Shown one piece after another: positions 38,172 through 52,778 of a DNA stretch of 52,778 nt (position 1 is its first letter; every line of letters begins with the position of its first letter). Both the position numbers and the translations under genes were made by a program. The DNA lies in the NCBI GenBank assembly GCA_937892995.1, contig CALBJS010000086.1, forward strand, positions 1 through 52,778, in the 5' to 3' direction. The notes under the pieces were generated by a model. The model was not told the origin of the DNA. It saw only the letters and a list, made by a program, of their open reading frames with translations, and did no database searches. This DNA comes from an uncultured Peptococcaceae bacterium (lineage in GTDB: Bacteria; Bacillota; Desulfitobacteriia; Desulfitobacteriales; Syntrophobotulaceae).

Positions 38172-38394
38172 TTAGATGATGATTCAGCCTTATGTTTTCT
38201 TACTATTTCTTAAATAAAGGATTCAAAAAAGTGTTATTTCGTTCCAAAAGGATATCTTTATAATTGCAAATGTACAGAATATAGTTACAATTATAATTAT
38301 AACCCAAAAGGGTTAATTTTTAGTGCGGAATATTTCCAAGCTAATCAAATCAACCTTTAAACTTGATACAATATTTTATTAGGAGATAGTATAG

Positions 38395-39048
38395 ATGGAT
38401 CAGATTCAAAAAAGTATTCCTTTGCATCTTCAAGCTTATGAAATCCTTAAGAAACAAATTCTTACAGGCAAGCTGATAAGTGGGGAAAGATTATTAGAAA
38501 AAAAGCTATCCCAGGACTTGGGAGTGAGTCGTAGTCCGATAAGAGAAGCGTTAAGAATGCTGGAGCAAGATGAATTGGTAGTATTAAACCCAAATGGATT
38601 AATAGTAAATTCCTTAGAAATGTCCGACATGAAGGAAATATATCAATGCAGTATAGCAATTGAGCCTTACGCTGTTAACTTAGCGGCCAGTAATCTGAAT
38701 GAAAAAGATATAAAAGATTTAAGAGCCTTCATTCAAAAGGCCAGAGAAAGTCATTTGCGGAAGGAATATAATGTTATTGTTGAATTCAATACAGGATTCC
38801 ACGAATCAATAATTGTTAAATGCGGCAATTCTCGTTTAATCTCTATCATTGACAAGCTAAGAGCCCTGACTATCCTCAGAAGAAGAGCTGAATTAGAATT
38901 TTATCATAAAAGGAGCGATGAATATTTATTGGAACATGAAGAGATTCTAGATGCTTTAGCCCAAAAAGATGGGGAGACAGCTGAACTTTTGATGAAAAAA
39001 CATATTATGAATGATTATAAGGTTTTCGAAAAAATGTATAAAAAATAA
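38395..39048 (+). CDS. GntR-family transcriptional regulator, FadR/FCD subfamily (paralog 1)
   Basis: wHTH LSQDLGVSRSPIREALRMLEQDELV plus an all-helical FCD-type C-domain. About two-thirds identical by eye to the ORF at 39562..40230. Confidence 0.85.
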   Translation: MDQIQKSIPLHLQAYEILKKQILTGKLISGERLLEKKLSQDLGVSRSPIREALRMLEQDELVVLNPNGLIVNSLEMSDMKEIYQCSIAIEPYAVNLAASNLNEKDIKDLRAFIQKARESHLRKEYNVIVEFNTGFHESIIVKCGNSRLISIIDKLRALTILRRRAELEFYHKRSDEYLLEHEEILDALAQKDGETAELLMKKHIMNDYKVFEKMYKK

Positions 39049-39078
39049 AAAAGAAAAATTTATTATGATACTTTTTAG

Positions 39079-39112
39079 GAATCTTGGTAAGAGTAACCAA
39101 GATTCTTTGTGT
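39079..39112 (+). terminator. Intrinsic terminator after GntR paralog 1
   Basis: gaatcttggt-aagagta-accaagattc followed by tttgtgt. A second AT-rich 15-bp hairpin lies at 39121..39158. Confidence 0.55.
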
Positions 39113-39254
39113 CTGGTAAAAAAATACTAAAATAAAATATTACTTATTTTAGTATTTTTTGTTGTCAAATAGTTTAACTAAAATAAGGAGTTGTAAAAAA
39201 TAAAAAATACCTTGCAAAATAGTTGAAGCAGCCTTTAAGAGGAAAATAACTTTT

Positions 39255-39293
39255 CTTGTCGAATAATACAATAGACTAACGACCGTCGACAAG
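39255..39293. promoter_or_regulatory. Inverted repeat CTTGTCGA-N23-TCGACAAG (candidate GntR operator, copy 1)
   Basis: Perfect 8-bp arms. A related sequence with GTCGA / GGTCGACAAAG lies at 40378..40414, upstream of the intact dctP. Confidence 0.4.
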
Positions 39294-39394
39294 TATATTA
39301 GTAGCATATCATATGTTTTTTCTTAAACTCATTATGTACTCCATAATTAGCAAAGAAGAAGCAAAATTTTTTTATTTATTGAAGGAGGATATTT

Positions 39395-39549
39395 ATGAAA
39401 GAGTTTGTTTCCTTAGCGTTAGTGCTTATCCTGACCCTGAACCTTGATAGTAGGTGAAAGATGCTTTCGCTGCAACTTGCTAACGTGCACACCAGAAGTT
39501 TGAAAACGAGTTAAGGAAAGATTTAGTTGACAAAATTGTAGAATACTAG
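39395..39549 (+). pseudogene. Internal-deletion remnant of a second TRAP substrate-binding protein gene (dctP paralog)
   Basis: The RBS and first about 60 nt (atgaaagagtttgtttccttagcgttagtgctt...) match 40658..40717. The following about 95 nt (gaaagatgctttcgctgcaacttgc...gacaaaattgtagaatactag) match 41573..41668. About 855 nt in between are missing. Confidence 0.75.
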
Positions 39550-39561
39550 GAGACAATATAA

Positions 39562-40230
39562 ATGAATCAGATTCAAAAAAGCAGACTGTTACATCTTCAG
39601 ACCTACGAAATACTTAAGAATGAGATTTTATCGGGTAAGTTGAAAAGTGGAGAAAGATTATCAGAAAGTAGAATATCACAGGAGTTAGGGGTTAGTCGTA
39701 GTCCAGTAAGAGAAGCTTTAAGAATGCTGGAACAGGATCATTTAGTAGTATTAACTTCTAGCGGGCTAATCATCAATATAATGAAAATGTCAGACATGGA
39801 AGAAGTATACCAATGTAGAATAGCACTTGAGCCGTATGCCGCAAATTTAGCTGCAAATAACTTAGATAATAAAGATATAATAAATTTAAAAAGCTTTATT
39901 AACAAAGCGAAAGAAAGCCATCAAAAGAAAGAATATGATAGTCTCGTAGAATTCAATACCGGATTTCACGATTTGATAGTCGGAAAGTGTGGTAATTCCC
40001 GCCTTATTGGTATTCTTGAAAGGCTAAGAGCCTTGACTATACTTAAAAGAAGAGCTGAATTGGAATTTTATGACCAGAGAAATAATGAATATCTGGTTGA
40101 ACATGAACAAATTTTAAAATCTTTAGCTGAGAAGGATGGAGAAGCCGCTGAATTCCTAATGAAAAAACATATTGAAAATGACTATAATATTTTTAAAAAA
40201 AGCTATAAAGCCAAAGATGAAATAGCTTAA
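39562..40230 (+). CDS. GntR-family transcriptional regulator, FadR/FCD subfamily (paralog 2)
   Basis: Same architecture as 38395..39048. RBS aggag. Confidence 0.85.
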   Translation: MNQIQKSRLLHLQTYEILKNEILSGKLKSGERLSESRISQELGVSRSPVREALRMLEQDHLVVLTSSGLIINIMKMSDMEEVYQCRIALEPYAANLAANNLDNKDIINLKSFINKAKESHQKKEYDSLVEFNTGFHDLIVGKCGNSRLIGILERLRALTILKRRAELEFYDQRNNEYLVEHEQILKSLAEKDGEAAEFLMKKHIENDYNIFKKSYKAKDEIA

Positions 40231-40377
40231 AAAATATTGGCAAAAGAAGTCCTGGGTAAAATCAGGATTTCTTTTATTCGTATGTATAGATTTCTTTTGG
40301 TAGCTCTATTATTTGGAAAGATAATAAAAAATAATCGGAAAATTTTTAAAAAAGAAGAAGGAAAATCAGAAAAGTAG

Positions 40378-40414
40378 TCGAATATATACAACATACTGAA
40401 GACGGTCGACAAAG
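40378..40414. promoter_or_regulatory. Candidate GntR operator, copy 2
   Basis: gtcgaatatatacaacatactgaagacggtcgacaaag is similar to 39258..39293. A third GTCGA lies at 40421. Confidence 0.35.
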
Positions 40415-40657
40415 ATGCATGTCGATAGTCTCCCTTAACTGAAAGGGATTGATGAAATAATTTACCTGGTTTTCACGGATAAATTTTAACTAATAGCAGC
40501 AAAAATAATACTAAGTTCTATGCCAAATACCCTTTCAGTTCATTATCTTTATTTTTTAAGAAGAAAGTAGGTGGTTTGATCAAAGGGAATATCGGCCATT
40601 AAAAGGCTAAAGGTTCAAAACTGAATATTCTTAAATATTTATGGATGGAGGATATTT

Positions 40658-41668
40658 ATGAAAAAGTTTATTTCCTTAGCGTTAGTGCTTGTTTTGACCT
40701 TGACCTTGGTAGTAGGTTGTGGTAATCAAACGGCAAATACCGGAGAACAAGACGGCAATCAGGGAACAGTAGTACTTAAAGCTGGACACTGTGTATCTGA
40801 GACAAACCCTTACCATCTTGGGATGGTTAAATTTAAAGAGCTAGCGGAAGAGTATAGTAATGGTACCTTGGAAATCCAGATATTCCCAAATAACATTTTG
40901 GGTGCCGAACGGGAAATGGTTGAAGGCATGCAATTAGGTACTTTGGACTTAGCGGTAACTTCTACCGGTGTTCTTAGCAACTTTGTTCCCTTGATGGGGA
41001 TAGTGGACTTGCCTTATCTGTTTAGGGATAGAGACCATGTTTTTAGAGTTTTAGACGGCGAAGTTGGCGATACGCTATTAGGTAAATTTGAGAGTGTTGG
41101 TATTGTTAGTCTTGGTTGGTGGGAAAACGGCTTCCGCCATTTTACCAATAGTAAGAAAGCAATCGAGAAACCGGAAGATGTAAAAGGGTTAAAAATTCGC
41201 GTGATGGAAAACCCTGTTTATATGGCTTTTATTGAGGCTTTAGGTGGTGCTCCAACTCCAATCAATGCTGCTGAATTATATACTGCACTGCAATCCGGAA
41301 CAGTAGATGGCCAGGAAAATCCTATCCCTGCGATTTTTACCAATCGTTTCTATGAGCCGCAGAAATATTTATCTCTTTCAGCTCATACCTACTCGCCGGC
41401 TGTATTTCATGTAAGTAAGGCTACCTGGGATAAATTGACTGATGAGCAAAAAGAGGCCATCAAGAAAGCTGAGAAAGAAGCTCGTGACTATGAGAGAGAA
41501 CTCAATAATCAAATGGCTATTGAGCAAATCGATCAACTGAAAGAAAAAGGCATTTTAGTAAATGAAGTTGATAAAGATGCTTTCGTTGCAGCTTGCCAAC
41601 CTGTACACCAGAAGTTTGAAAACGAGTTTGGGAAAGATTTGATTGACAAAATTATTAATACTAAATAA
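40658..41668 (+). CDS. dctP: TRAP transporter substrate-binding protein (DctP family), lipoprotein
   Basis: 336 aa. Lipobox LVVGC. DctP-family pattern (NPYHLG..., GLKIRVMENPVY..., ELYTALQSGTVDGQENP). Confidence 0.9.
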   Translation: MKKFISLALVLVLTLTLVVGCGNQTANTGEQDGNQGTVVLKAGHCVSETNPYHLGMVKFKELAEEYSNGTLEIQIFPNNILGAEREMVEGMQLGTLDLAVTSTGVLSNFVPLMGIVDLPYLFRDRDHVFRVLDGEVGDTLLGKFESVGIVSLGWWENGFRHFTNSKKAIEKPEDVKGLKIRVMENPVYMAFIEALGGAPTPINAAELYTALQSGTVDGQENPIPAIFTNRFYEPQKYLSLSAHTYSPAVFHVSKATWDKLTDEQKEAIKKAEKEARDYERELNNQMAIEQIDQLKEKGILVNEVDKDAFVAACQPVHQKFENEFGKDLIDKIINTK

Positions 41669-41760
41669 GGGTAAAAACACCGTAAAAACTAAGATGGATT
41701 AATTTTAATAATTTTTGTACTAATTCATGTTCTTAAAACTGCTATAAGGGAAGTGAAAAT

Positions 41761-42237
41761 GTGCAGTTGATTCTAAAAGGTATAGATCGAATTAACAAAG
41801 CAATCACCTGGGGTGTCATCCTGATGTTTGGGGTAATGGCTATAGTGATAATTGCCCAAGTGATTTATAGGTTTGTGTTAAAAGCTTCTTTGCCTTGGTC
41901 GGAAGAATTGGCTAGATATCTTATGGTCTGGGTCACCTTTTTGGGAGCTGGGGTAGCAGTACGTACCAAAGGCCTAATCGCCGTGGAAGCAATCGTTAAT
42001 CTGTTGCCTTCGGCGGTAAAAAAAGCAATTTACTATCTAGTGACTCTGCTTTCGGTCGGCTTAATAGTGATAATGATCTACTTCGGATTTAAAATGACCG
42101 GATTCGTCTCTAACCAGTTGTCGGCAGCTATGCAAATATCGATGGCTTGGGCTTATTCAGCTATACCGGTAGGTGCAATTGTCATGTTGATGAATACTGT
42201 GGCCGTAATTATCGAAGAGAAGGGAGGACAACCATAA
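41761..42237 (+). CDS. dctQ: TRAP transporter small permease (DctQ)
   Basis: 158 aa, 4 TM, WSEELARYLMVWVTFLGAG motif. GTG start. Confidence 0.85.
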   Translation: MQLILKGIDRINKAITWGVILMFGVMAIVIIAQVIYRFVLKASLPWSEELARYLMVWVTFLGAGVAVRTKGLIAVEAIVNLLPSAVKKAIYYLVTLLSVGLIVIMIYFGFKMTGFVSNQLSAAMQISMAWAYSAIPVGAIVMLMNTVAVIIEEKGGQP

Positions 42238-42238
42238 G

Positions 42239-43516
42239 ATGGGTTTACTCCTGATTTTAGGAATGTTCTTACTTGTATTTTTAAGCATGCCTGTGGCCTT
42301 TTCTCTGGGTGCTTCTTCTACCATAGTGCTGATGTACCAAGGCAAAATACCCCTAGACGTTATTGTGCAAAGGATGTTTGCCGGTGTCGATTCTTTCCCC
42401 CTTATGGCGATTCCTTTCTTTATCCTAGCGGGAAGTTTGATGGAAACAGGCGGTATTTCCGAACGTCTGATTAAATTTGCTACAGCAATGGTCGGTAAGG
42501 CTACTGGTGGATTAGGTTTGGTGACGGTGGCAACTTGTCTGTTCTTTGGGGCAGTATCCGGTTCAGCTGCTGCCACGACGGCAGCTGTTGGTGCTCTTAT
42601 GATTCCGTCTATGGTCCAAAGGGGCTACCACAAGAACTTTTCAGCGGCTACTGTAGCCTCTGCCGCCTCCTTAGGGGTTATTATTCCGCCTAGCATTCCG
42701 ATGGTTCTCTATGGTGTAGTTTCGGGACAGTCTATCGGCACCCTTTTTATTGCAGGGATAATTCCAGGCTTATTTATCGGTGCGACGTTAATGCTTGTTT
42801 GTTACTTCATTTCCAAAAAGGAAGGCTATAAAGGTACCGAACAGGCTACCCGTAAAGAAAAGCTGGTAGCATTTAAAGATGCTATTTGGGCTTTACTGAT
42901 GCCAATCATCATCCTTGGCGGCATCTATGGGGGGTATTTTACTCCTACAGAAGCAGCCGCAGTTGCCGTGTTATACGGATTTATAGTTAGCATATTTATC
43001 TACAAGGAAATCAAGCTGCCGGACTTAAAAAATGTACTTGCTTCTGCAGCAATAACAACTTCTATAATTATGATCATACTCGCCAATGCCTCGCTTTTTG
43101 GTTGGATTATGGCTCGGGAAAGAGTACCGCATATGGTAGCAGAGGCCTTTACGAATTTCTCCAGTAGTCCATTTGTTTACCTGCTTCTGGTAAATATTCT
43201 ACTGCTATTCGTTGGGACTATTTTTGAATCTTCAGCGGCGATCATTATTCTGACCCCAATTCTGTATCCTATAGCAGTTCAAATGGGTATTGACCCTATT
43301 CACTTCGGGATTGTCATGGTTGTCAACCTGGCTATAGGTTATGTAACCCCTCCCTTGGGTATCAATCTCTTTATTGCCTGCAATATCTCAAAGCTTCGTA
43401 TTGAGGATTTGGTCGTACGCTTGGTTCCCTTCCTGGTAACTTTGATAGTAGCACTCTTGATTCTTACCTATGTTCCGCAAATCACCTTATTCTTGCCTCA
43501 CTTATTAGGGATGTAG
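42239..43516 (+). CDS. dctM: TRAP transporter large permease (DctM)
   Basis: 425 aa polytopic protein with typical DctM motifs (PLMAIPFFILAG, GSSAAT). Start abuts the dctQ stop. Confidence 0.92.
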   Translation: MGLLLILGMFLLVFLSMPVAFSLGASSTIVLMYQGKIPLDVIVQRMFAGVDSFPLMAIPFFILAGSLMETGGISERLIKFATAMVGKATGGLGLVTVATCLFFGAVSGSAAATTAAVGALMIPSMVQRGYHKNFSAATVASAASLGVIIPPSIPMVLYGVVSGQSIGTLFIAGIIPGLFIGATLMLVCYFISKKEGYKGTEQATRKEKLVAFKDAIWALLMPIIILGGIYGGYFTPTEAAAVAVLYGFIVSIFIYKEIKLPDLKNVLASAAITTSIIMIILANASLFGWIMARERVPHMVAEAFTNFSSSPFVYLLLVNILLLFVGTIFESSAAIIILTPILYPIAVQMGIDPIHFGIVMVVNLAIGYVTPPLGINLFIACNISKLRIEDLVVRLVPFLVTLIVALLILTYVPQITLFLPHLLGM

Positions 43517-43615
43517 CTAAGTAAGTGTATTTGAACTGATTAAATTAGTAATCAATCTAAGTAAGATGATTAGGTTTTAAACCTTGAATATTGAGGAACC
43601 TAAAATTGTTACTCA

Positions 43616-44440
43616 AAAGATGAAAGAGGAGAAAGAGTTATGACATTCAGACCAAAAGAAAATCGAATTTTATCATGTTTACAAAGGAACGAAGTACCTC
43701 TCGGAACTCAGATCTATATGGCACATCCTGCCATCATTGAAATTATAGCTTACGCCGGGTTTGACTACTATATGCTTGATATGGAACATTGCAGAGTCAA
43801 CCCGGAGACAATGGAACACTGCATTCGTGCAGCTGACGCTGCCGGCATAACTACGGTAGTTAGAGTACCTGAAAATAACCATACCCTTATTCGAGGAGCG
43901 ATGGAAGCAGGTGCCCAGGGGGTAATCGTTCCCCATATTAACACTAAAGAAGATGCCCGTAAAGCAGTTAACGCCTTGCGTTATCCGCCGGAAGGCACAG
44001 CCGGGATGTGTCCTGCAATTCGTTCAGCCAACTATTCTGTACCGAGCTGGGACGATTATCTGGAATACCACAGTAACAATACTTCCTTGATAGCCCTAAT
44101 CGAAAGTCCTCAGGCTGTAGACAATGCTGAAGAAATCTTTGCTGAGTTAAAGTCTGGTGTCGATGCTGTATGGTTTGGACGCGGTGATCTGGCCCAAGCC
44201 GTAGCTAAACCTGGGGAAAAGGTAGACTGGGATCCTCCGTACATTAACGAAGCCTTTGAAAAAGTGTTAGCTGTTTCCAAGAAAACCGGAATCCCTGTAA
44301 TGGCTATTCCTTTCCCCGTTCTTAGTCCCGAAAGTGCGAAGGAAGCTTTAGCAAAAGGTGCTCGCATCATGTTATATTCCATCGATCAACTCCTATTCTA
44401 TAACCTCTGTGTAGATATTGTGAAAGCTATGAAAGGTTAA
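43616..44440 (+). repeat. 825-bp perfect direct repeat, copy 1 (RBS to stop codon of the aldolase gene)
   Basis: Identical to 46937..47761 in every stretch I compared. All three tracked ORFs on both strands translate identically. The offset is 3321 nt. Confidence 0.95.
43640..44440 (+). CDS. HpcH/HpaI-family 2-keto-3-deoxy-acid (pyruvate) aldolase, copy 1
   Basis: 266 aa. Family pattern DYYMLDMEHC..., VVRVPENN..., IESPQAVDNAEEI, VWFGRGDL. Confidence 0.85.
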   Translation: MTFRPKENRILSCLQRNEVPLGTQIYMAHPAIIEIIAYAGFDYYMLDMEHCRVNPETMEHCIRAADAAGITTVVRVPENNHTLIRGAMEAGAQGVIVPHINTKEDARKAVNALRYPPEGTAGMCPAIRSANYSVPSWDDYLEYHSNNTSLIALIESPQAVDNAEEIFAELKSGVDAVWFGRGDLAQAVAKPGEKVDWDPPYINEAFEKVLAVSKKTGIPVMAIPFPVLSPESAKEALAKGARIMLYSIDQLLFYNLCVDIVKAMKG

Positions 44441-44659
44441 AATTCAGCTAAAACAGCAACAATATTCCTCAATAAAATGGCAGCAAAAAAGTATACAAAA
44501 CAAAAGTAAGAAAAGATGCAGTATCATAAGGACTATTCTTCTTGCTGCCATTATTTAAAGAAAAATACCTAAATATAAAAGTATTATAGACTAGCTAATT
44601 TGTAAATAAAATAGCTTTTCAACAAGATAGACTAGCCCCTCTAGAAAGGAAGAAAAAGG

Positions 44660-45982
44660 ATGAAATTTGTTGAAGATATTGATATTGTAATCGAGGGTGG
44701 TTTTCAGGAAGTTCCTCCAATAATGATGCATAGGGTTAAACAGAATTTTCCTCGTCCTGTTATTAAGGATATTGAAGGAACTGTCCGAGCAGAATTGGCA
44801 AGAGAAGAAATAAGGAAAAGAATCAAACCGGGGATGAGTATAGCAGTTTGTGTAGGCAGTAGGGGAGTAGCTGAAATTCCCCTTTTAACTAAGACTGTGA
44901 TAAGTATTCTAAAAGAACACAACACTAAACCATTTATTGTACCAGCCATGGGAAGCCATGGGGGAGCAAAAGCTGAAGGACAGAAACTAATTCTGGAACA
45001 CTTAGGAGTTACGGAAGAGGCCATGGGTGCGGAAATACGTTCTTCTATGGAAGTTGTCAGCCTGGGGGATACCCATACAGGCCAACCGGTTTATATGGAC
45101 AAAAATGCTTATGAAGCTGACTTGATAATCCTTATTCCCAGAGTCAAGGTTCATACTGATATTAAAGGTCCATTCGAAAGCGGCATTATGAAAATGTTGA
45201 CAATCGGTCTAGGCAAACATAAGGGCACTTCTTTCTATCATCGATTTAATCCTTATGGGGATATGCATAATGTAATTCCTGTAGTTGGCCAGCACGTAAT
45301 TGATAACTCCAATGTCGCTTTTGCCCTGGCTGTGGTAGAAAATGCCTATAATGAATTAGCAGTAATTAAAGCCGTACCGGCAGAAAAAGTCCTGGAAGAA
45401 GAGCCAAAACTTTTGGAAATATCTAAAGAGCTAATGCCCAGAATTGAAGTAGATGATGTAGACGTATTAATTATTGATGAAATGGGTAAAGAAGCAAGCG
45501 GCACGGGAATGGATCCTAATATTATGGGCAGAGCAAGTGCACCTGATTGCGACTGCAGTCAATTCAAGGCTCCCAAAATAAAAAGAATAGTAACCTTGGA
45601 CCTTACCGAAGGTTCTGAAGGTAATGCAGCCGGAGTAGGTCTTGCTGATATTATACCTAAACGTTTATTCAACAAAATCAGTCTTAACCATACTTATGCT
45701 AACTGTGTTACCGGTACCTTGCTTAAAGCAGCTTATCTACCTATTATTACCAATACAGATTATGAGGCTTTTATAGTTGGTATTAAGACCTGTACCTATA
45801 TGCGTAACTATAAGGATGCCAAAGTTGTCAGAATCAAAAACACCAATTCAATTTTCGAAATACAAGTTTCGACCACCTTGCTAGATCAGGTGCGTAAGCG
45901 TCCGCATTGTGAAGTCTTACCTGGTAGTGAACCGATAACCTTTGACGCTGAGGGAAATATGCTTCCTTATGGAGCCAAGTAG
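44660..45982 (+). CDS. Divergent LarA-like (lactate racemase N-domain/DUF2088) protein, putative nickel-pincer-dependent hydroxyacid racemase/epimerase
   Basis: 440 aa. Colinear with LarA landmarks: AMGSHGG in place of ATGTHR, and RVKVHTDIKGPFESGIMK...H in place of EPHxxxGFSGGxK...H. Flanked by larB, with larC and larE nearby. Confidence 0.6.
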   Translation: MKFVEDIDIVIEGGFQEVPPIMMHRVKQNFPRPVIKDIEGTVRAELAREEIRKRIKPGMSIAVCVGSRGVAEIPLLTKTVISILKEHNTKPFIVPAMGSHGGAKAEGQKLILEHLGVTEEAMGAEIRSSMEVVSLGDTHTGQPVYMDKNAYEADLIILIPRVKVHTDIKGPFESGIMKMLTIGLGKHKGTSFYHRFNPYGDMHNVIPVVGQHVIDNSNVAFALAVVENAYNELAVIKAVPAEKVLEEEPKLLEISKELMPRIEVDDVDVLIIDEMGKEASGTGMDPNIMGRASAPDCDCSQFKAPKIKRIVTLDLTEGSEGNAAGVGLADIIPKRLFNKISLNHTYANCVTGTLLKAAYLPIITNTDYEAFIVGIKTCTYMRNYKDAKVVRIKNTNSIFEIQVSTTLLDQVRKRPHCEVLPGSEPITFDAEGNMLPYGAK

Positions 45983-46100
45983 CAAAGTCGTATCTGCCAG
46001 AACACATTACTGCTCCAGTTATTGAATTGAGGAAAAACAACTATTATGGGACCCAAATTCCCTTACTAGGTAACTAAGGGCCGGAGAGGACAGGTATATC

Positions 46101-46859
46101 GTGAATGATCAAAAACTAAGAGAATTACTTTTCGCTTATAAAAAAGGCGAGATCGAATTGGATATAGCTTTAAAGCATTTAAGAGTACTGCAAGAAGAAG
46201 ACATAGGATTTGCTAAAATAGACCATCAGCGTTCCTTGCGCACCGGTTTTCCTGAAGTCATATTTGGTGAGGGGAAGACCAAAGAACAGATAGTTACAAT
46301 TGCTCAAGGTTTGGCAGCCAGAGGTTCAACAGTTTTAGTGACAAGGACCAACAAAGAAGTTTTTCAAGCAGTTAATTGCAAGATGCCTGCTCAGTTTAAC
46401 GAACTAGCACGTACAATCGTAGTTGATGCCGAGGAAGTAGTACCTACGGGCGGACAAGTTGCAATCTTAAGTGCCGGAACAGCCGATATACCTGTTGCCG
46501 AAGAAGCTGCTGTTACAGCAATTGTTATGGGGAATAAGGTTGAAAAGGTTTATGACGTAGGAGTGGCTGGCCTTCACCGTTTGCTTGGTCGTATTGATTT
46601 AATCAGAAAAGCTGATGTCACTATTGTAGTAGCCGGAATGGATGGGGCTTTGCCAAGCGTTGTAACAGGGTTGGTAGACCGCCCGGTGATTGCCGTGCCT
46701 ACCAGCGTCGGTTACGGGGCCAGCTTTAACGGCCTGGCAGCACTTTTAGCGATGCTTAATTCTTGTGGGAGCGGCCTTGGTGTTGTAAATATAGATAATG
46801 GGTTTGGGGCAGCGGTTCTGGCAACTTCAATTGCCCGTTTAAAAGCTTCTAACAATTAA
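46101..46859 (+). CDS. larB: Nickel-pincer cofactor biosynthesis protein LarB (AIR-carboxylase-like)
   Basis: 252 aa. N-terminal extension plus PurE-like core (ILSAGTADIPVAEEA, VVAGMDGALPSVV, PTSVGYGAS). GTG start after ggagagga. Confidence 0.85.
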   Translation: MNDQKLRELLFAYKKGEIELDIALKHLRVLQEEDIGFAKIDHQRSLRTGFPEVIFGEGKTKEQIVTIAQGLAARGSTVLVTRTNKEVFQAVNCKMPAQFNELARTIVVDAEEVVPTGGQVAILSAGTADIPVAEEAAVTAIVMGNKVEKVYDVGVAGLHRLLGRIDLIRKADVTIVVAGMDGALPSVVTGLVDRPVIAVPTSVGYGASFNGLAALLAMLNSCGSGLGVVNIDNGFGAAVLATSIARLKASNN

Positions 46860-46936
46860 AAACTCACTACCATCAGTATCTATCCACTTTAGCCCGTAAG
46901 GGAAGGTTCTCATTTAGCTAGAATTATATCAATATT

Positions 46937-47761
46937 AAAGATGAAAGAGGAGAAAGAGTTATGACATTCAGACCAAAAGAAAATCGAATTTTATCATGTT
47001 TACAAAGGAACGAAGTACCTCTCGGAACTCAGATCTATATGGCACATCCTGCCATCATTGAAATTATAGCTTACGCCGGGTTTGACTACTATATGCTTGA
47101 TATGGAACATTGCAGAGTCAACCCGGAGACAATGGAACACTGCATTCGTGCAGCTGACGCTGCCGGCATAACTACGGTAGTTAGAGTACCTGAAAATAAC
47201 CATACCCTTATTCGAGGAGCGATGGAAGCAGGTGCCCAGGGGGTAATCGTTCCCCATATTAACACTAAAGAAGATGCCCGTAAAGCAGTTAACGCCTTGC
47301 GTTATCCGCCGGAAGGCACAGCCGGGATGTGTCCTGCAATTCGTTCAGCCAACTATTCTGTACCGAGCTGGGACGATTATCTGGAATACCACAGTAACAA
47401 TACTTCCTTGATAGCCCTAATCGAAAGTCCTCAGGCTGTAGACAATGCTGAAGAAATCTTTGCTGAGTTAAAGTCTGGTGTCGATGCTGTATGGTTTGGA
47501 CGCGGTGATCTGGCCCAAGCCGTAGCTAAACCTGGGGAAAAGGTAGACTGGGATCCTCCGTACATTAACGAAGCCTTTGAAAAAGTGTTAGCTGTTTCCA
47601 AGAAAACCGGAATCCCTGTAATGGCTATTCCTTTCCCCGTTCTTAGTCCCGAAAGTGCGAAGGAAGCTTTAGCAAAAGGTGCTCGCATCATGTTATATTC
47701 CATCGATCAACTCCTATTCTATAACCTCTGTGTAGATATTGTGAAAGCTATGAAAGGTTAA
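46937..47761 (+). repeat. 825-bp perfect direct repeat, copy 2
   Basis: See 43616..44440. Flanking sequence diverges immediately on both sides. Confidence 0.95.
46961..47761 (+). CDS. HpcH/HpaI-family aldolase, copy 2 (identical to copy 1)
   Basis: Protein identical to 43640..44440 over all 266 aa. Confidence 0.85.
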   Translation: MTFRPKENRILSCLQRNEVPLGTQIYMAHPAIIEIIAYAGFDYYMLDMEHCRVNPETMEHCIRAADAAGITTVVRVPENNHTLIRGAMEAGAQGVIVPHINTKEDARKAVNALRYPPEGTAGMCPAIRSANYSVPSWDDYLEYHSNNTSLIALIESPQAVDNAEEIFAELKSGVDAVWFGRGDLAQAVAKPGEKVDWDPPYINEAFEKVLAVSKKTGIPVMAIPFPVLSPESAKEALAKGARIMLYSIDQLLFYNLCVDIVKAMKG

Positions 47762-47791
47762 GACTTATAATAATTTAGCCTGTCCTTAGAA

Positions 47792-47889
47792 GAAAGAGTG
47801 GAAGATAACGGGTTAGGATCCATATAAGGTTCCCCCTCCGATTTAAACTTTATTAGGTTTTGAGCCCGTCTTCCTCTCTTTCGTTTTTT
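47792..47889 (+). terminator. Long-range stem enclosing about 52 nt, followed by a T-run (terminator or structured RNA)
   Basis: gaaagagtggaagataacggg (47792..47812) pairs with cccgtcttcctctctttc (47865..47882) as 7+6+4 bp with one mismatch and one bulge. Then gtttttt. Confidence 0.4.
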
Positions 47890-47928
47890 AGTTCTATGTT
47901 TATTTTTTAGCCGAGAGGTGAGCAATAA

Positions 47929-48729
47929 TTGAAAATAGCATATTGGGATTGTTTTTCAGGCATAAGTGGAGATATGTGCTTAGGTTCGATAGTTGATGCT
48001 GGAGTAAAAGTGGAAGATTTAGAAGCAATGCTTAAACGATTAAATATACCGGAATTCAAATTAGAAACCAAACAGGTTCTAAAAAATGGGATCGGAGCAA
48101 CTGACCTAATAGTTGTATGTGTTGGACAGGATGATTGTAACCATCATCATCATGAAACTAGCCATCGTCATGATAAAAGTCATAGTCATGAGCAAAGCTC
48201 TAACCATAATAAACATCAACACTTACAACTCAAAGATATACTAGACATAATACATAATGCTGAAATTGCAGACAAAATAAAACAACAGTCAGAACAGGTT
48301 TTTCAAAATTTAGCTAATGTGGAATCTAAAATACATCGAACCACACCCGAAGATATACATTTTCATGAAGTGGGAGCTTTAGATACTATTATTGATGTTG
48401 TTGGGACAGTAATAGGCTTAGATTTACTTGGCATCGAAGAAGTGTATGTATCTGCTTTTCCACTGGGAAGGGGTAAAGTCAAATGTATGCACGGTATAAT
48501 TCCTCTACCAGCCCCGGCAGCTTTAGAGCTATTGAAGGGAAAACCCATATATTATCATGAGTGTTATCAGGAAATTATCACACCGACTGGGGCGGCCTTA
48601 GCGGTTACCCTGGGAAAAGGTTTTGGTTCTTTCCCTAAAATGATACTGGAAAGGGTTGGCTATGGAGCCGGCGATTTAGATCTGGAACATCCTAATGTAA
48701 TGAGGATGTTTATAGGTGAAATTTTATAA
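47929..48729 (+). CDS. larC: LarC N-terminal module only (LarC1-like nickel insertion protein); C-terminal domain missing
   Basis: Starts MKIAYWDCFSGISGDM and has the His-rich Ni-binding stretch CNHHHHETSHRHDKSHSHE. Ends at 266 aa (...NVMRMFIGEIL), whereas full-length LarC is about 400-420 aa. TTG start after gagaggtg. Confidence 0.8.
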   Translation: MKIAYWDCFSGISGDMCLGSIVDAGVKVEDLEAMLKRLNIPEFKLETKQVLKNGIGATDLIVVCVGQDDCNHHHHETSHRHDKSHSHEQSSNHNKHQHLQLKDILDIIHNAEIADKIKQQSEQVFQNLANVESKIHRTTPEDIHFHEVGALDTIIDVVGTVIGLDLLGIEEVYVSAFPLGRGKVKCMHGIIPLPAPAALELLKGKPIYYHECYQEIITPTGAALAVTLGKGFGSFPKMILERVGYGAGDLDLEHPNVMRMFIGEIL

Positions 48730-48761
48730 AAACAAGAGAAATTAAAAGGCAACTTCTTAGT

Positions 48762-49932
48762 TTGGAAGGATTAATTTGTGTAATTTATTTTTCATTAATA
48801 AAGATAATAAAGTTTCCTCTAGGAATTACTAATAGAAACTACATATACTTAAAAACACGAACTAAATTAGTAACTAGTTATGTCATAATAGCTCTATTTA
48901 TTCTCCTAGTTGGTTTCATAGGCTTAAATAATGTTAAAATGCTAGGTTCTTCTTTAAACGATGTATATAAAAACAATCTAGTTCCCATAACCCTTATGAG
49001 CAATATCCAGAAAAACCTATTATCAATCCGTTCAGAAACCTTATTAATGTTGTATTCTAATGATCAAAATCAAATTAGCAACTCTATGAGCATAATAACA
49101 CATTTACAAGCTGAGAATGATAAGCTGAGCCAAGAATATTTTAATACAAATTTGTCACAGCTAGAAAAAGAAAAATCAACAGACTTCCCAAAAACCTTGA
49201 AGAATATATGGTGTTTGGTGATGTCTTAATTCGTCTGGCTAAAGATAATAAAATTGATCAAGCTAAAGTTATTTATGAAAGGCAAACCGCTGCCAGAGAT
49301 CAAATTATGGAGTCAATCGAGGAATTACTCAATACAAATATAAAACTTGCCGAGAATTCCAATCTTACTAGTCAAGAAAACAGCTCAGTTGCCTATAAGG
49401 TAGTTCTGCTTATTTCTACTTTAGGGATGGTTTTAGCGATTTTATTTGGAATTATTATAAGCAGGGTTATCACTGCTGGGATAAACAAATGTGTCAAGCT
49501 GGCAGAGAATCTGAGCAGTCGGCAAGTACGGTGACCAATATTCAAAAAATTATTAGCCAGGTCGAAGCGGCTTTTAAAAATCTTTCCGAAAATGCTAAGC
49601 AAGTTTTAGGTTCCCTAAATTACAAAGTTAGATCTGATTACAAGCAAATGGTTGAAATAGGTGATAAATATCAGCAAGATGCTAACCAAATGGCGGAGTT
49701 AATGAATGAATTTGCATCTAGTACTGAAGAAATGGCTTTTTCTCTGGAACAAATCTTAGGTGCTATTGAAACGCTTGCTAATTCTACCCAAAATGCAGCT
49801 GCAAGTTCAGAGGAAATCACATCTAGTATCTTTGATACCGCCAGTGCAATAGAAAATGTAGCCAAGATCGCCCATAATCAGGCAGGATCAGCCCGAAAAC
49901 TAACGGAGATGATCCAAAAATTCAAACTTTAA
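48762..49932 (+). pseudogene. Methyl-accepting chemotaxis protein, decayed (two frameshifts plus internal deletion)
   Basis: Three consecutive ORFs in three frames encode the 4HB_MCP sensor, TM2 and the extreme C-terminal signalling segment. Frameshifts lie at the A5 run 49190..49194 and near 49510. The HAMP and hairpin core (about 200 aa) are absent. No credible start. Confidence 0.75.
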
Positions 49933-50040
49933 TCTCTACCGGAATTATACTTTGTGAACTATTTGTTGTTACCAAAGATCCCAGAAATCCTAACTTTCGC
50001 GTAGTAAAGCCAAAACTTAAGTTCAAAGGGGAAAGCTAAC

Positions 50041-50490
50041 ATGTCCAAAGTCATTTATCTTATTTTGGCACTGACTAGCGGTTTCCTGTTTGGGATTCAG
50101 GCCTCGATCAATGGGGCCTTGGGCAAACGTATAGGTATCTATGAAACAGCACTTCTTTCTAGTTTGCTTACCTCAACAGTTTTAATACTGATTACGTTAA
50201 TATTTGGAAAAGGTAATATCTTAGGGGCTTTAGGGGTACCCAAGTGGCAAGTAATCGGCGGATTTCTGGGAGCTTTTATTCTGATGACCATGACGATTGC
50301 GGTACCACACATAGGTGTAGCATCAACGGTATTTTTTGTAATTGTAGGCCAGATGATAATAAGTATAATAATAGATAACTTTGGTTTTTTTAATGTTCCT
50401 GTAATTCCTTTTAACATTTACAGATTTTTTGGTATACTATTTATGATTATTGCTGTGCTGTTAATTATCAAGGGTAATTTTAATAATTAA
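50041..50490 (+). CDS. DMT-superfamily membrane protein (DUF606/YdcZ-like)
   Basis: 149 aa, 5 TM, N-terminal motif GFLFGIQASINGALGKRIG. Confidence 0.75.
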   Translation: MSKVIYLILALTSGFLFGIQASINGALGKRIGIYETALLSSLLTSTVLILITLIFGKGNILGALGVPKWQVIGGFLGAFILMTMTIAVPHIGVASTVFFVIVGQMIISIIIDNFGFFNVPVIPFNIYRFFGILFMIIAVLLIIKGNFNN

Positions 50491-50659
50491 GGGCTGATAT
50501 GCCTTTTTTTATTTCGCAATGAAGCTTTATTTTAGGTATAATATAAAGGTTGCCTTTTTAAAAAGTACTAAAAGAGAGTAATAATAGGAAAAATTGTGGT
50601 GAAATGAGTGGTATTTAACTTGTAAGCTCATATTTGACTCGTATAAGGAGGGGTTAGAA

Positions 50660-51475
50660 ATGCAGTCTCATGAAGAAAAATTATCTTTTCTTCGAGAAGA
50701 TTTAGCTAAGATGGGAAAGGTGTTAATTGCTTTTTCAGGAGGGGTTGACAGTACCTTCTTATTATATGTGGCACATGAGGTTCTAGGGGAGAATGCTCTG
50801 CCGGTTACCATCAAGTCGTCACTTTTCCCGGCAAGGGAGTTTGGATGGACAGTGGATTTCTGTAGAAAATTGGGACTTAGTCAGCAGGTTATAATTTCTA
50901 ATGAACTGGATAATCCTGAATTTTATAAGAACTCCCCTGAAAGGTGTTATATATGTAAAAAAGCTATTTTAGGAGAGATATTTAGCTTGGCGAGAAATCT
51001 TGGTATCGAATACGTAGCAGACGGAACAAACCTTGATGATTTGGATGATTACAGACCAGGAATGAGGGCCCTTAAGGAGATGGGCATTCATAGCCCGCTC
51101 CTTAAGGCGGGTCTAACTAAAGAAAATATCCGGTTTTTGTCCAAGGAAGCGAGTCTTCCAACTTGGAATCTGCCGTCTTTTGCCTGCCTTTCTTCAAGGA
51201 TTCCCTACGGACAAAAGATTACGAGGGAAAAACTGCAAATGATAGAAAAAGCCGAACAATACTTAATGGATCTTGGTTTTGAGCAGGTTAGGGTGCGGCA
51301 TCATGGGGATATAGCCAGAGTCGAGGTAACTCCCGAAGAAAGAGTTAAGTTCTTCGACCCTGGCTTTATGGATCAAGTTTACGATTTCTTCAAAAGTATA
51401 GGTTTTCTGTATGCGGTCTTAGACCTAAGAGGCTATAGGAGTGGCAGTATGAATGAAAAGATTCTTAGTAAATAA
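50660..51475 (+). CDS. larE: ATP-dependent sacrificial sulfur transferase LarE
   Basis: PP-loop AFSGGVDSTFLL and the conserved Cys in SFACLSSRIPYG. 271 aa. Confidence 0.85.
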   Translation: MQSHEEKLSFLREDLAKMGKVLIAFSGGVDSTFLLYVAHEVLGENALPVTIKSSLFPAREFGWTVDFCRKLGLSQQVIISNELDNPEFYKNSPERCYICKKAILGEIFSLARNLGIEYVADGTNLDDLDDYRPGMRALKEMGIHSPLLKAGLTKENIRFLSKEASLPTWNLPSFACLSSRIPYGQKITREKLQMIEKAEQYLMDLGFEQVRVRHHGDIARVEVTPEERVKFFDPGFMDQVYDFFKSIGFLYAVLDLRGYRSGSMNEKILSK

Positions 51476-52698: not shown

Positions 52699-52778
52699 TG
52701 CAGAAAATAAGAATTAATAAGTAAATAATTTGCATTATAGGATACTATTAGGTTTTCCTAAAAACTATAAAAAGAAAC

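What the first reader, a model, noticed from the sequence alone, without database searches (positions are those of the whole stretch)
38395..51475. Nickel-pincer (Lar) cofactor genes embedded in a TRAP/aldolase/GntR locus around a divergent LarA-like enzyme: a candidate undescribed hydroxyacid pathway
One 13-kb stretch holds two FCD-type GntR regulators, a complete DctPQM TRAP transporter and an HpcH-family pyruvate aldolase. It also holds a 440-aa protein colinear with LarA but strongly diverged at the landmark motifs: AMGSHGG instead of ATGTHR, and KVH-x13-K instead of PH-x9-K. In ...GIMKMLTIGLGKHKGTSFYH the Lys is followed 16 residues later by His. As I recall, that is the same spacing as the Lys184 cofactor tether and His200 nickel ligand of L. 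plantarum LarA. larB, larC and larE are all present in the same locus, which argues that the enzyme uses the NPN cofactor. LarA homologues are known to include racemases and epimerases for various 2-hydroxyacids, but I do not know of a characterised one coupled to a TRAP importer and an HpcH aldolase. No dehydrogenase or dehydratase is present. The substrate and the logic of epimerise-then-cleave (or the reverse) are therefore open.
Basis: partly seen in the sequence, partly recalled or inferred. Interest (0 to 1): 0.75.

Follow-up and report, generated by a model that had tools for sequence, protein, structure and literature searches.

The report
Group-22 LarA homologue with TRAP and aldolase
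The flagged enzyme belongs to an already catalogued but still uncharacterised branch ("group 22") of the nickel-pincer lactate-racemase superfamily, and here it sits in an unusual minimal locus with a hydroxy-acid importer and a duplicated pyruvate aldolase, which gives a testable substrate guess but not a new kind of system.

Summary
The genes are real, with two corrections. The HpcH aldolase is present twice as an exact 825-nt repeat flanking larAH-larB. "larC" encodes only the LarC1 domain; the CTP-binding LarC2 domain is nowhere in the 52.8-kb window.

The 440-aa protein is a clear member of LarAH group 22 (NCBIfam NF052515, 505 bits against a cutoff of 400). Its "diverged" motifs are that family's signature. 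The cofactor and catalytic residues R68, H100, H165, K178 and H194 are conserved. An AlphaFold model matches only LarA structures significantly.

Group 22 was defined in 2020 with function unknown, and its TRAP association was already tabulated. It is very large (at least 7,988 relatives).

HpcH pairing is rare: 2 of 80 group-22 loci, and 1 of 68 aldolase loci carry the partner. The TRAP system's closest relatives sit beside panB/panE and other LarA homologues.

Best reading: the transporter imports a 2-hydroxy acid, perhaps a pantoate-like 2,4-dihydroxy acid or a small acid sugar. The NPN enzyme inverts C2, a step encoded elsewhere makes the 2-oxo acid, and the aldolase cleaves it. This is a new member of a known kind, of moderate interest.

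The parts
38395..39048 (+). GntR/FCD (FadR-type) regulator, copy 1
   Evidence: Pfam GntR and FCD. It is 69% identical to copy 2.
39256..39292 (.). Operator-like pair of TTGTCGA / TCGACAA boxes ahead of the dctP remnant
   Evidence: The same arrangement occurs ahead of the intact dctP.
39373..39537 (+). Remnant of a second dctP gene: the 5' end (39373-39440) and the 3' end (39457-39537) joined by an internal deletion
   Evidence: The pieces are 88% and 89% identical to 40636-40703 and 41573-41653. This is an old tandem duplication of the GntR-dctP unit.
39562..40230 (+). GntR/FCD regulator, copy 2
   Evidence: Pfam GntR and FCD.
40374..40425 (.). Operator-like GTCGA boxes upstream of dctP. No such boxes precede the aldolase or lar genes.
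40658..41668 (+). TRAP solute-binding protein DctP. The carboxylate- and hydroxyl-binding residues E84, R160, R181 and N221 are kept. The aromatic lid residue is replaced by A204.
   Evidence: Pfam DctP 326 bits. Nearest solved structures are 4pdh, 4pdd, 4nq8, 4p9k and 4p47.
41761..42237 (+). TRAP small membrane subunit DctQ
42239..43516 (+). TRAP large membrane subunit DctM
   Evidence: It is 70-72% identical to the DctM of the panB/panE-linked loci L173 and L174.
43616..44440 (+). Aldolase repeat copy 1 (gene 43640-44440): class II HpcH/HpaI pyruvate aldolase of an unnamed subfamily
   Evidence: Pfam 112.6 bits. It scores far below the GarL, HpaI and RhmA equivalog cutoffs. The exact repeat is shown.
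44660..45982 (+). LarA homologue of group 22 (NPN-dependent isomerase) with R68, H100, H165, K178 and H194
   Evidence: NF052515 505 bits against a cutoff of 400. Lar_N 34.8 bits. AlphaFold pLDDT 87.6, and all 18 matches with E <= 0.001 are LarA-family structures.
46101..46859 (+). LarB (pyridinium carboxylase/hydrolase of NPN synthesis)
   Evidence: NF033503 290 bits against a cutoff of 175.
46937..47761 (+). Aldolase repeat copy 2 (gene 46961-47761), 100% identical to copy 1
47792..47885 (+). Long hairpin followed by a U-rich tract between aldolase copy 2 and larC1. It is terminator- or attenuator-like.
   Evidence: MFE -35.2 kcal/mol, z -2.8. A comparable stem is present in the sibling organism. 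The only Rfam match is a chance one.
47929..48729 (+). LarC1 domain only (His-rich nickel-binding part of the cyclometallase). LarC2 is absent.
   Evidence: Ni_insertion positions 1-234 of 375. TIGR00299 'nickel_LarC1' 204 bits. A full-length LarC query aligns only over residues 1-276.
48762..49932 (+). Decayed methyl-accepting chemotaxis protein gene in three ORF fragments. It is probably not part of the pathway.
   Evidence: 4HB_MCP and MCPsignal fragments. The sibling organism has an intact 604-aa gene at this place.
50041..50490 (+). YdcZ-type DMT membrane protein of unknown role, followed by a terminator-like site at 50489-50506
   Evidence: It is conserved in the sibling organism.
50660..51475 (+). 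LarE sulfur transferase with the CXXC-C motif (C96, C99, C176)
   Evidence: TIGR00268 324 bits against a cutoff of 150. The motif's meaning is from PMC9283937.

Best explanation
The segment 38.2-51.5 kb is a substrate-inducible catabolic island lying between alr and asd in an uncultured anaerobe from a fermentation metagenome.

Proposed sequence of events:
1. FadR-type GntR repressors control a promoter upstream of dctP.
2. The DctPQM TRAP system imports a monocarboxylic 2-hydroxy acid.
3. The group-22 LarA homologue inverts the configuration at C2. It carries the nickel-pincer nucleotide tethered to K178 and ligated by H194. It would use the LarA mechanism: hydride transfer to the cofactor gives a bound 2-oxo intermediate, with H100 and H165 acting as acid and base.
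4. A stereospecific downstream enzyme can then use the imported isomer.
5. The pathway ends with the class II HpcH aldolase, which splits a 4-hydroxy-2-oxo acid into a 2-oxo acid (pyruvate-type) and an aldehyde.

The step that makes the 2-oxo group is not in the window and must be supplied from elsewhere. It would be a dehydrogenase if the substrate is a 2,4-dihydroxy acid such as pantoate or a 3-deoxy-aldonate, or a dehydratase if it is a 2,3-dihydroxy acid sugar. LarC2 must also be supplied from elsewhere. I favour a pantoate-like or small (C4-C6) dihydroxy acid over a hexonate.

Shown: gene identities, residue conservation, fold, neighbourhood statistics and purifying selection. Inferred: substrate class, order of steps and co-transcription.
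For: Family membership and active-site residues.

Group-22 genes usually sit with a transporter plus a stereospecific acid-processing enzyme:
- Across 80 genome loci: a dehydrogenase in 31, a kinase in 18, a dehydratase in 14, TRAP in 14.
- The gene lies directly beside IlvD/Edd or UxaA-like dehydratases in L085, L086 and L087.
- It lies beside a GlcD/E/F-like FAD 2-hydroxy-acid dehydrogenase plus TRAP in L174.
- It lies beside a DUF1537 kinase plus PdxA (a four-carbon acid-sugar module) in L026, L049 and L067.

The TRAP proteins:
- The closest relatives (DctP 56-59%, DctM 70-72%) lie next to true panB and panE, and in L174 also next to two LarA homologues.
- The nearest solved binding proteins were described as pantoate- or erythronate-bound (plus my own recollection of the PDB titles).
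- The carboxylate and hydroxyl ligands are conserved.

The aldolase:
- Its subfamily typically sits with SDR or Zn-ADH dehydrogenases and aldehyde:ferredoxin oxidoreductase. That is the logic of oxidising a hydroxy acid, cleaving it, and then oxidising the aldehyde.
- HpcH-type YfaU and PanB catalyse the same class of reaction, 2-oxoacid + aldehyde <-> 4-hydroxy-2-oxoacid. Ketopantoate reductase interconverts such products with 2,4-dihydroxy acids (PMC10127515).

Organisation and maintenance:
- All genes are on one strand. The simple scan found no terminator-like site in the intergenic gaps between dctP and aldolase copy 2 (four low-grade sites lie inside dctP, dctM and larB). Operator-like boxes occur only upstream of dctP.
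- The aldolase + group-22 + TRAP combination recurs in L090.
- All lar genes and the aldolase are under strong purifying selection against a sibling lineage: dN/dS 0.03-0.14 at dS of about 1.
Against: - No enzyme that would generate the 2-oxo acid is in the window.
- HpcH is rare next to group-22 genes (2 of 80 loci), and group-22 genes are rare next to this aldolase subfamily (1 of 68 loci).
- The window's LarA homologue is a deep lone branch: 92% to one sibling, then 49% or less to everything else. No close relative informs on substrate.
- Group 22 lacks the Y294/Q295/K298 substrate-carboxylate triad of LarA (D285/P286/M289 here). Desguin et al. noted that groups lacking K298 might not be epimerases.
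- Natural pantoate is a single enantiomer, so a pantoate racemase has no obvious use.
- The window's DctP replaces the aromatic lid (F or W in all close relatives) with Ala, so its ligand differs from theirs.
- LarC2, which holds the essential CTP site (PMC13510736), is absent from the window.
Confidence: 0.5

Rival explanations
1. Mosaic neighbours. The TRAP/aldolase/GntR module and the lar genes are functionally independent units brought together by rearrangement. The LarA homologue acts on some other cellular or imported hydroxy acid.
For: - GntR-HpcH-DctPQM occurs as a self-contained five-gene module without any LarA homologue (L098, L099, L102, L106, L141).
- Mutual co-occurrence is only 2 of 80 and 1 of 68 loci.
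- larAH-larB is bracketed by identical aldolase copies, like an insertion or duplication product.
- The lar genes are interrupted by a chemoreceptor pseudogene and a DMT gene.
- The locus carries scars of an older GntR-dctP duplication.
Against: - The window's TRAP lineage, unlike the aldolase-linked TRAPs (21-31% identity), is the one found beside LarA homologues elsewhere: L174, L049 and L067.
- The genes share a strand, with no clear terminator from dctP to aldolase copy 2.
- The larB-aldolase-larC1 adjacency is kept in a sibling lineage at dS of about 1.
- The three-part combination recurs in L090.
Confidence: 0.2
2. Hidden-redox partner of the aldolase. The group-22 enzyme is not an epimerase here. 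It uses NPN as a hydride shuttle: it oxidises C2 of a 2,4-dihydroxy acid to the aldolase substrate and returns the hydride to a cleavage product (aldehyde to alcohol, or 2-oxo acid to 2-hydroxy acid). The result would be a redox-neutral cleavage with no NAD-dependent dehydrogenase and no dehydratase.
For: - It explains why the locus has neither a dehydrogenase nor a dehydratase.
- In sister loci the same TRAP lineage is paired with PanE (C2 oxidoreductase) plus PanB (aldolase-like). Here LarAH plus HpcH occupy those places.
- Group 22 lacks K298, and Desguin et al. proposed other hydride-mediated reactions for such groups.
- Intermolecular hydride shuttling by an NPN enzyme has been demonstrated for the unrelated AKR-fold NphT (PMC13524815).
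Against: - No LarA-fold enzyme is known to release its oxidised intermediate.
- Both catalytic histidines of a two-base racemase are conserved.
- Most group-22 loci do contain ordinary dehydrogenases, dehydratases or kinases.
- This reading is pure inference from what is absent in a 52.8-kb window.
Confidence: 0.1
3. Decaying locus. NPN can no longer be made because LarC2 is lost, and the LarA homologue is on its way to becoming a pseudogene.
For: - No LarC2 domain is in the window.
- The neighbouring chemoreceptor gene is broken into three fragments.
- The LarC1-LarC2 linker and the CTP site are needed for activity.
Against: - larAH, larB, larC1 and larE are all intact and under strong purifying selection against a sibling that also has LarC1 only (dN/dS 0.04-0.14).
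- Split LarC1/LarC2 genes are common: 12 of the 80 loci carry them as separate ORFs.
- LarC2 can lie 5 kb away from LarC1 (L021), and another genome shows LarC1 only in its lar cluster (L055, Anaerovirgula). A LarC2 elsewhere in the genome is therefore plausible.
Confidence: 0.1

Closest known systems
LarA homologue group 22 (Desguin et al. 2020, Sci Rep, PMC7583248; NCBIfam NF052515 'nickel pincer cofactor-dependent isomerase, group 22')
   Same: - It scores 505 bits against a cutoff of 400.
- It has the same signature motifs, PAMGSHGGA and K(P/V)HTD...ESG..KM..IGLGKH.
- It has the same residue pattern at the LarA landmark positions (R, H, H, T, D, K, H).
- The published neighbourhood for the group already lists TRAP, LarE, SDR and IlvD/Edd.
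   Different: - It is a lone deep branch: 49% identity or less to all but one sibling.
- It is paired with an HpcH aldolase, without the SDR, dehydratase or kinase partners that most members have.
- It has V65 where the group has Ala.
Lactate racemase LarA of Lactiplantibacillus plantarum (PDB 5HUQ) and other characterised LarA homologues (malate, 2-hydroxyglutarate and hydrophobic 2-hydroxy-acid racemases)
   Same: - The two-domain fold matches (Foldseek E 1e-9 to 1e-11, probability 1.00).
- Equivalents of R75, H108, H174, K184 and H200 are present.
   Different: - Sequence similarity is marginal: PDB phmmer E 0.001-0.3 and about 15% identity.
- D72, Y294, Q295 and K298 are replaced.
- There are 12 rather than 9 residues between the second catalytic His and the Lys tether.
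Gluconate 2-epimerases GntE1/GntE2 (LarAH19/20)
   Same: They are NPN enzymes that invert C2 of an acid sugar, in sugar-acid gene neighbourhoods. This is the functional model that best fits most group-22 loci.
   Different: They belong to different phylogenetic groups with different signature residues. No activity has been shown for any group-22 member.
panB-panE-DctPQM loci (L173, Clostridiales bacterium PH28_bin88; L174, assembly GCA_022735915.1)
   Same: - They hold the closest relatives of the window's transporter (DctP 56-59%, DctM 70-72%).
- They pair it with a C2 oxidoreductase and an aldolase-type C-C lyase acting on 4-hydroxy-2-oxo acids.
- L174 also carries a group-22 gene and a second LarA homologue.
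   Different: - The window has an HpcH aldolase in place of PanB and a LarA homologue in place of PanE.
- The binding-protein lid residue F is A204 in the window.
Class II pyruvate aldolases YfaU/RhmA, GarL and HpaI (HpcH/HpaI family)
   Same: - Pfam HpcH_HpaI 112.6 bits.
- The best PDB relatives are 3qz6, 1dxe (GarL) and 2vws (YfaU).
- Conserved acidic and Arg positions are invariant or nearly so in the subfamily alignment.
   Different: - It scores about 120 bits against equivalog cutoffs of 369-441, so it is none of the named enzymes.
- Its subfamily has its own neighbourhood of SDR, Zn-ADH, aldehyde:ferredoxin oxidoreductase and TRAP.

Membership tests
LarA superfamily (Lar_N/DUF2088, NPN-dependent racemases and epimerases) | Significant match to the Lar_N profile | tested here: met
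   PF09861 34.8 bits against a gathering score of 23.3, E 1.2e-8. There is also a weaker DUF362 hit of 26.9 bits.
LarA superfamily | Two-domain LarA fold | tested here: met
   AlphaFold model with pLDDT 87.6 and pTM 0.87. All 18 Foldseek PDB hits with E <= 0.001 are LarA-family structures; the next hits have E >= 0.005.
LarA superfamily | Lys that tethers NPN (K184) and His that ligates nickel (H200) | tested here: met
   K178 and H194 are invariant in 25 relatives. Desguin's alignment equates the group-22 K and H with K184 and H200.
LarA superfamily | Two catalytic histidines (H108, H174) and Arg75 | tested here: met
   H100, H165 and R68 are invariant.
LarA superfamily | Substrate-carboxylate residues Y294, Q295 and K298 | tested here: not met
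   They are D285, P286 and M289 here, and D, T/P and I/T in the group. The replacement is group-wide, not a defect of this gene.
LarA superfamily | Bound nickel-pincer cofactor and racemase or epimerase activity | not testable with these tools
   This needs expression with larBCE and activity assays.
LarAH group 22 (NF052515) | Score above the curated equivalog cutoff | tested here: met
   505.3 bits against a cutoff of 400, covering profile positions 3-391 of 392.
Complete NPN biosynthesis set (LarB, LarC, LarE) | LarB and LarE present | tested here: met
   NF033503 290 bits against 175, and TIGR00268 324 bits against 150.
Complete NPN biosynthesis set | LarC with both the LarC1 (nickel) and LarC2 (CTP) domains | tested here: not met
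   Only LarC1 is present (Ni_insertion 1-234 of 375). LarC2 and full-length LarC queries find nothing else in six frames of the window. The rest of the genome could not be searched.
TRAP transporter (DctPQM) | All three components adjacent | tested here: met
   PF03480 326 bits, PF04290 117 bits and PF06808 436 bits.
Named HpcH aldolases (GarL, HpaI, RhmA/YfaU) | Score above the equivalog cutoff | tested here: not met
   Scores are 92-121 bits against cutoffs of 369-441. It is a family member by Pfam only.
FadR-type GntR regulators | N-terminal GntR helix-turn-helix domain plus C-terminal FCD domain | tested here: met
   Both proteins have both domains.

The most novel reading that the evidence does not exclude
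The group-22 enzyme of this locus is not an epimerase. It is an NPN hydride shuttle working with the HpcH aldolase to cleave a 2,4-dihydroxy acid (pantoate-like or 3-deoxy-aldonate) in a redox-neutral way. It would replace the PanE/PanB or SDR/aldolase pairs seen in sister loci, and it would function with a LarC1-only nickel insertase.
Probability: 0.1. Interest if true: 0.8.

Novelty: new member of a known kind. Interest (0 to 1): 0.4.

Why it matters
Group 22 is one of the large branches of the nickel-pincer enzyme superfamily. It has thousands of members across Bacillota, Pseudomonadota, Poribacteria and archaea, and no known reaction.

This locus is one of the leanest contexts for it: a transporter, the enzyme, cofactor genes and one aldolase. 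Together with the panB/panE-linked sister loci, it narrows the candidate substrates to small 2-hydroxy acids, namely pantoate-like 2,4-dihydroxy acids and C4 acid sugars. That makes a defined screening panel possible.

If the enzyme turned out to hand its hydride to a second molecule, that would extend NPN chemistry within the LarA fold. As it stands, the finding is an informative but ordinary member of a catalogued family.

Tried and rejected
- Direct sequence comparison with solved LarA structures is too weak to align reliably (E 0.001-0.36, with either a single sequence or a profile). I relied instead on the published group-22 residue table and on a fold search.
- A distance analysis over the 80 group-22 loci found the window protein about equidistant from all context classes, so no substrate could be inferred from nearest neighbours.
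- Rfam found no riboswitch or other RNA family in 38000-52778. The single hit, mir-H20 at E 0.055, is chance.
- I looked for the GntR operator-like boxes upstream of the aldolase, larAH, larB, larC1 and larE and found none.
- I could not retrieve Vetting et al. 2015, or a ligand table for 4PDH, 4PDD, 4NQ8 and 4P9K. The ligand identities rest and my memory.
- I could not tell whether the sibling organism also has two aldolase copies, because its contigs break for other reasons.
- I considered 4-hydroxy-2-oxoglutarate or a keto-deoxy-aldarate as substrate, which would need only racemisation and cleavage. I did not favour it, because the DctP belongs to a lineage whose described ligands, pantoate and erythronate, are monocarboxylic hydroxy acids.

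Full report
**What is there.** The flagged stretch is a run of same-strand genes between alanine racemase (37059-38171) and an aspartate-semialdehyde-dehydrogenase-like gene (51604-52698). In order, it holds:
- GntR/FCD regulator 1 (38395-39048);
- GntR/FCD regulator 2 (39562-40230);
- DctP, DctQ and DctM (40658-43516);
- an HpcH/HpaI aldolase (43640-44440);
- a 440-aa Lar_N protein (44660-45982);
- LarB (46101-46859);
- a second aldolase gene (46961-47761);
- a LarC-like ORF (47929-48729);
- three chemoreceptor fragments (48762-49932);
- a YdcZ-type membrane protein (50041-50490);
- LarE (50660-51475).

The window appears to be a whole 52,778-bp contig. Contigs identical to parts of it occur in NCBI assembly GCA_036732405.1, in an ENA assembly named a fermentation metagenome, and in a third ENA assembly.

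**Corrections to the observation.**
- *The aldolase is duplicated.* Positions 43616-44440 and 46937-47761 are identical over 825 nt, from the ribosome-binding site to the stop codon, so larAH-larB is bracketed by direct repeats 3,321 nt apart. Contig L003 (window 44314-47063) begins and ends exactly 127 nt inside the two copies. L002 begins 55 nt inside copy 1. This is the signature of a real repeat in k-mer assemblies of other samples.
- *The larC ORF encodes only LarC1.* It matches Ni_insertion positions 1-234 of 375 and the 'nickel_LarC1' model. Neither a LarC2 query nor a full-length LarC finds anything more in six frames of the window. LarC2 carries the CTP site needed for nickel insertion (PMC13510736).
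- *A sibling organism has the same order.* Logan sample DRR358089 holds a relative (LarAH 92%, aldolase 89%) with larAH-larB-aldolase-LarC1-only, then an intact 604-aa chemoreceptor, DMT and larE. LarC1-only therefore predates the decay of the window's chemoreceptor gene.
- *Separate LarC1 and LarC2 genes are common.* Twelve of the 80 comparison loci carry them as separate ORFs. LarC2 lies 5 kb from LarC1 in L021, and Anaerovirgula (L055) also shows LarC1 alone.

**Identity of the LarA-like protein.** Pfam gives only a modest Lar_N hit (34.8 bits) plus DUF362. NCBIfam places the protein firmly in NF052515, 'nickel pincer cofactor-dependent isomerase, group 22' (505 bits against a cutoff of 400).

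The group numbering is that of Desguin et al. 2020. Their Dataset S2 shows group-22 sequences with the same PAMGSHGGA and KPHTD...ESG..KM..IGLGKH motifs. It lists the equivalents of D72, R75, H108, H174, F175, F176, K184 and H200 as A, R, H, H, T, D, K and H, and those of Y294, Q295, V297 and K298 as D, T, V/I and I.

In the window these positions are V65, R68, H100, H165, T166, D167, K178 and H194, then D285, P286, I288 and M289. H100, H165, K178, H194 and R68 are invariant among 25 relatives. An AlphaFold model (pLDDT 87.6) significantly matches only LarA-family structures in the PDB: 18 hits at E 1e-11 to 1e-8, after which E jumps to 0.005 or worse.

The 'divergence' is the signature of a known family, which has at least 7,988 relatives at E <= 1e-5. 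Its function was listed as unknown in 2020. None of the enzymes characterised in the 2020, 2024 and 2025 papers I read belongs to it.

**Neighbourhoods of group 22.** I examined 80 genome loci:
- 36 carry at least one lar biosynthesis gene, and 20 carry all three;
- 14 carry TRAP genes;
- 31 carry a dehydrogenase (SDR, Zn-ADH, GFO/MocA, 2-hydroxy-acid dehydrogenase or Fe-ADH);
- 18 carry a kinase (FGGY, ROK or DUF1537);
- 14 carry an acid-sugar dehydratase (IlvD/Edd, UxaA-like, enolase-type or UxuA);
- only 4 carry an aldolase, 2 of them HpcH.

Metagenome contigs show the gene immediately beside IlvD/Edd or UxaA-like dehydratases with TRAP or ABC importers. This agrees with the published Table S1 for the group: SDR 45%, IlvD/Edd 30%, LarE 30% and TRAP 25-30%. 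The general picture is an isomerase that prepares an imported hydroxy or sugar acid for a stereospecific enzyme. Of the 14 TRAP-linked loci, all but one also carry such an enzyme. The window does not.

**The aldolase.** It belongs to HpcH/HpaI by Pfam but is far below the GarL, HpaI and RhmA equivalog cutoffs. Its subfamily (50-71% identity) was sampled in 68 metagenome loci. Typical neighbours are SDR (20 loci), Zn-ADH (18), aldehyde:ferredoxin oxidoreductase (16) and TRAP (9-10). A GntR-HpcH-DctPQM module recurs five times. A LarA homologue appears in one of the 68. Separately, contig L090 has a 71%-identical aldolase within about 3.3 kb of a group-22 gene (471 bits) that is followed by a TRAP system. 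The three-part combination has therefore arisen at least twice.

**The transporter.**
- The window's DctP is nearer to DctPs found beside group-22 genes (37-51%) than to those beside the aldolase subfamily (21-31%).
- Its best relatives overall are in L173 and L174 (DctP 56-59%, DctQ 56%, DctM 70-72%). There the transporter follows a true panB (TIGR00222, 357 bits against a cutoff of 208) and a panE/apbA gene.
- L173 adds an IclR regulator, an M20 hydrolase, a tartrate/isopropylmalate-type decarboxylating dehydrogenase, an Fe-ADH and an aldehyde:ferredoxin oxidoreductase.
- L174 adds a partial canonical-type LarA homologue upstream of panB. On the other strand it has a group-22 gene (521 bits) next to GlcD/E/F-like FAD/FeS dehydrogenase genes and a second TRAP system.
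- The nearest solved binding proteins are 4pdh, 4pdd, 4nq8, 4p9k/4pak and 4p47 (E 1e-78 to 1e-72). A later paper describes this set as pantoate- or erythronate-bound, and I recall the PDB titles the same way.
- The carboxylate and hydroxyl ligands described for this set are conserved as R160, R181, N221 and E84. The aromatic lid residue, F or W in all close relatives, is A204 only in the window.

I infer an importer of a small 2-hydroxy monocarboxylate related to pantoate or tetronates, but not identical to them.

**Regulation and maintenance.**
- GTCGA-containing inverted boxes occur upstream of dctP (40374-40425) and upstream of a deleted dctP remnant (39256-39292). They do not occur before the aldolase or lar genes.
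- The simple scan reports no terminator-like site in the intergenic gaps between dctP and aldolase copy 2, though four low-grade sites lie inside dctP, dctM and larB. A long hairpin with a U tract follows copy 2, and a terminator-like site follows the DMT gene.
- Compared with the sibling lineage (dS about 0.7-2), dN/dS is 0.044 for larAH, 0.095 for larB, 0.033 for the aldolase, 0.112 for larC1 and 0.139 for larE. The lar genes, including the LarC1-only gene, are being maintained.

**Synthesis.** The best-supported model is a TRAP-fed catabolic unit. The group-22 enzyme inverts C2 of the imported 2-hydroxy acid by the LarA proton-coupled hydride-transfer mechanism, and the aldolase performs the last C-C cleavage.

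The reaction that creates the 2-oxo group is missing from the window. For a 2,4-dihydroxy acid it could be a PanE/IlvC-type or GlcD-type dehydrogenase encoded elsewhere. For a 2,3-dihydroxy acid sugar it would be a dehydratase. HpcH-type YfaU and PanB catalyse the same aldol and retro-aldol chemistry on 4-hydroxy-2-oxo acids, and ketopantoate reductase interconverts these with 2,4-dihydroxy acids (PMC10127515). This makes the parallel between PanB/PanE in the sister loci and HpcH/LarAH here chemically sensible.

Three rivals remain:
- chance juxtaposition of two modules;
- a non-epimerase hydride-shuttle role, allowed by the group-wide loss of K298 and by the precedent of NphT;
- locus decay, which the selection data argue against.

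**Novelty.** The family, its cofactor residues and its TRAP association are already in the literature and in NCBI's naming models. New here are a lone deep-branching member, its pairing with a duplicated HpcH aldolase without the usual partner enzymes, and a conserved LarC1-only arrangement. I classify it as a new member of a known kind, with moderate interest because the reaction of group 22 is still unknown.

Noticed in passing
window 43616-44440 and 46937-47761: An exact 825-nt direct repeat (ribosome-binding site plus the whole aldolase gene) brackets larAH-larB, with a 3,321-nt period. Assembly graphs cannot exclude more than one copy of the aldolase-larAH-larB unit. Copy 2 (after larB) is the position shared with the sibling organism.
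   Followed up: partly
window 38377-40703: An old tandem duplication of a GntR-dctP unit. The two regulators are 69% identical at the protein level (75% at the nucleotide level). The first dctP copy is reduced to its first 68 nt and last 81 nt (88-89% identical to the intact gene), and each unit keeps its own operator-like boxes.
   Followed up: partly
window 47929-48729; L089 1058-1750; L055 18807-19733: LarC is represented by the LarC1 domain alone, with no LarC2 nearby. This holds in the window, in its sibling and in Anaerovirgula multivorans. larC1 is under purifying selection (dN/dS 0.11). Either LarC2 is encoded far away or these organisms insert nickel differently.
   Followed up: partly
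window 48762-49932: A methyl-accepting chemotaxis gene has decayed into three ORF fragments and has lost its HAMP domain and most of its signalling domain. The sibling organism has an intact 604-aa gene at the same place.
   Followed up: yes
window 50660-51475: LarE carries the CXXC-C cysteine motif (C96, C99, C176) of the [4Fe-4S]-dependent catalytic LarE type, not the single sacrificial cysteine of L. plantarum.
   Followed up: partly
window 47792-47885 and L089 about 850-935: A long hairpin lies between aldolase copy 2 and larC1 (GGAAGAUA.CGG... / ...CCG..UCUUCC), followed in the window by a U-rich tract. A comparable stem is present in the sibling. It may be a terminator or attenuator. It has no Rfam family.
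   Followed up: partly
L173 806-12441: A gene cluster: M20 hydrolase, IclR, panB, panE, DctPQM, a tartrate/isopropylmalate-type decarboxylating dehydrogenase, Fe-ADH and aldehyde:ferredoxin oxidoreductase. It looks like an anaerobic pantothenate/pantoate degradation cluster (pantoate to aldopantoate to dimethylmalate to 2-oxoisovalerate). That interpretation is from my own knowledge of the Pseudomonas pathway and was not tested.
   Followed up: no
L174 2-13810: One contig carries two different LarA homologues. A canonical-type one lies upstream of panB-panE-DctPQM. A group-22 one lies next to GlcD/E/F-like dehydrogenase genes and a second TRAP system.
   Followed up: partly
L026, L049, L067 (Neobacillus and Alkalihalobacillus loci): Here the group-22 gene sits in a cluster of a PrpR-like activator, a DUF1537 acid-sugar kinase, DctPQM (absent in L026) and PdxA. 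This suggests a four-carbon acid-sugar (threonate/erythronate) 2-epimerase role for that subgroup.
   Followed up: no
window 27407-29669: A LigB/AMMECR1 fusion protein is followed by a radical SAM protein, which resembles the known AmmeMemoRadiSam gene pair. It is unrelated to the finding.
   Followed up: no
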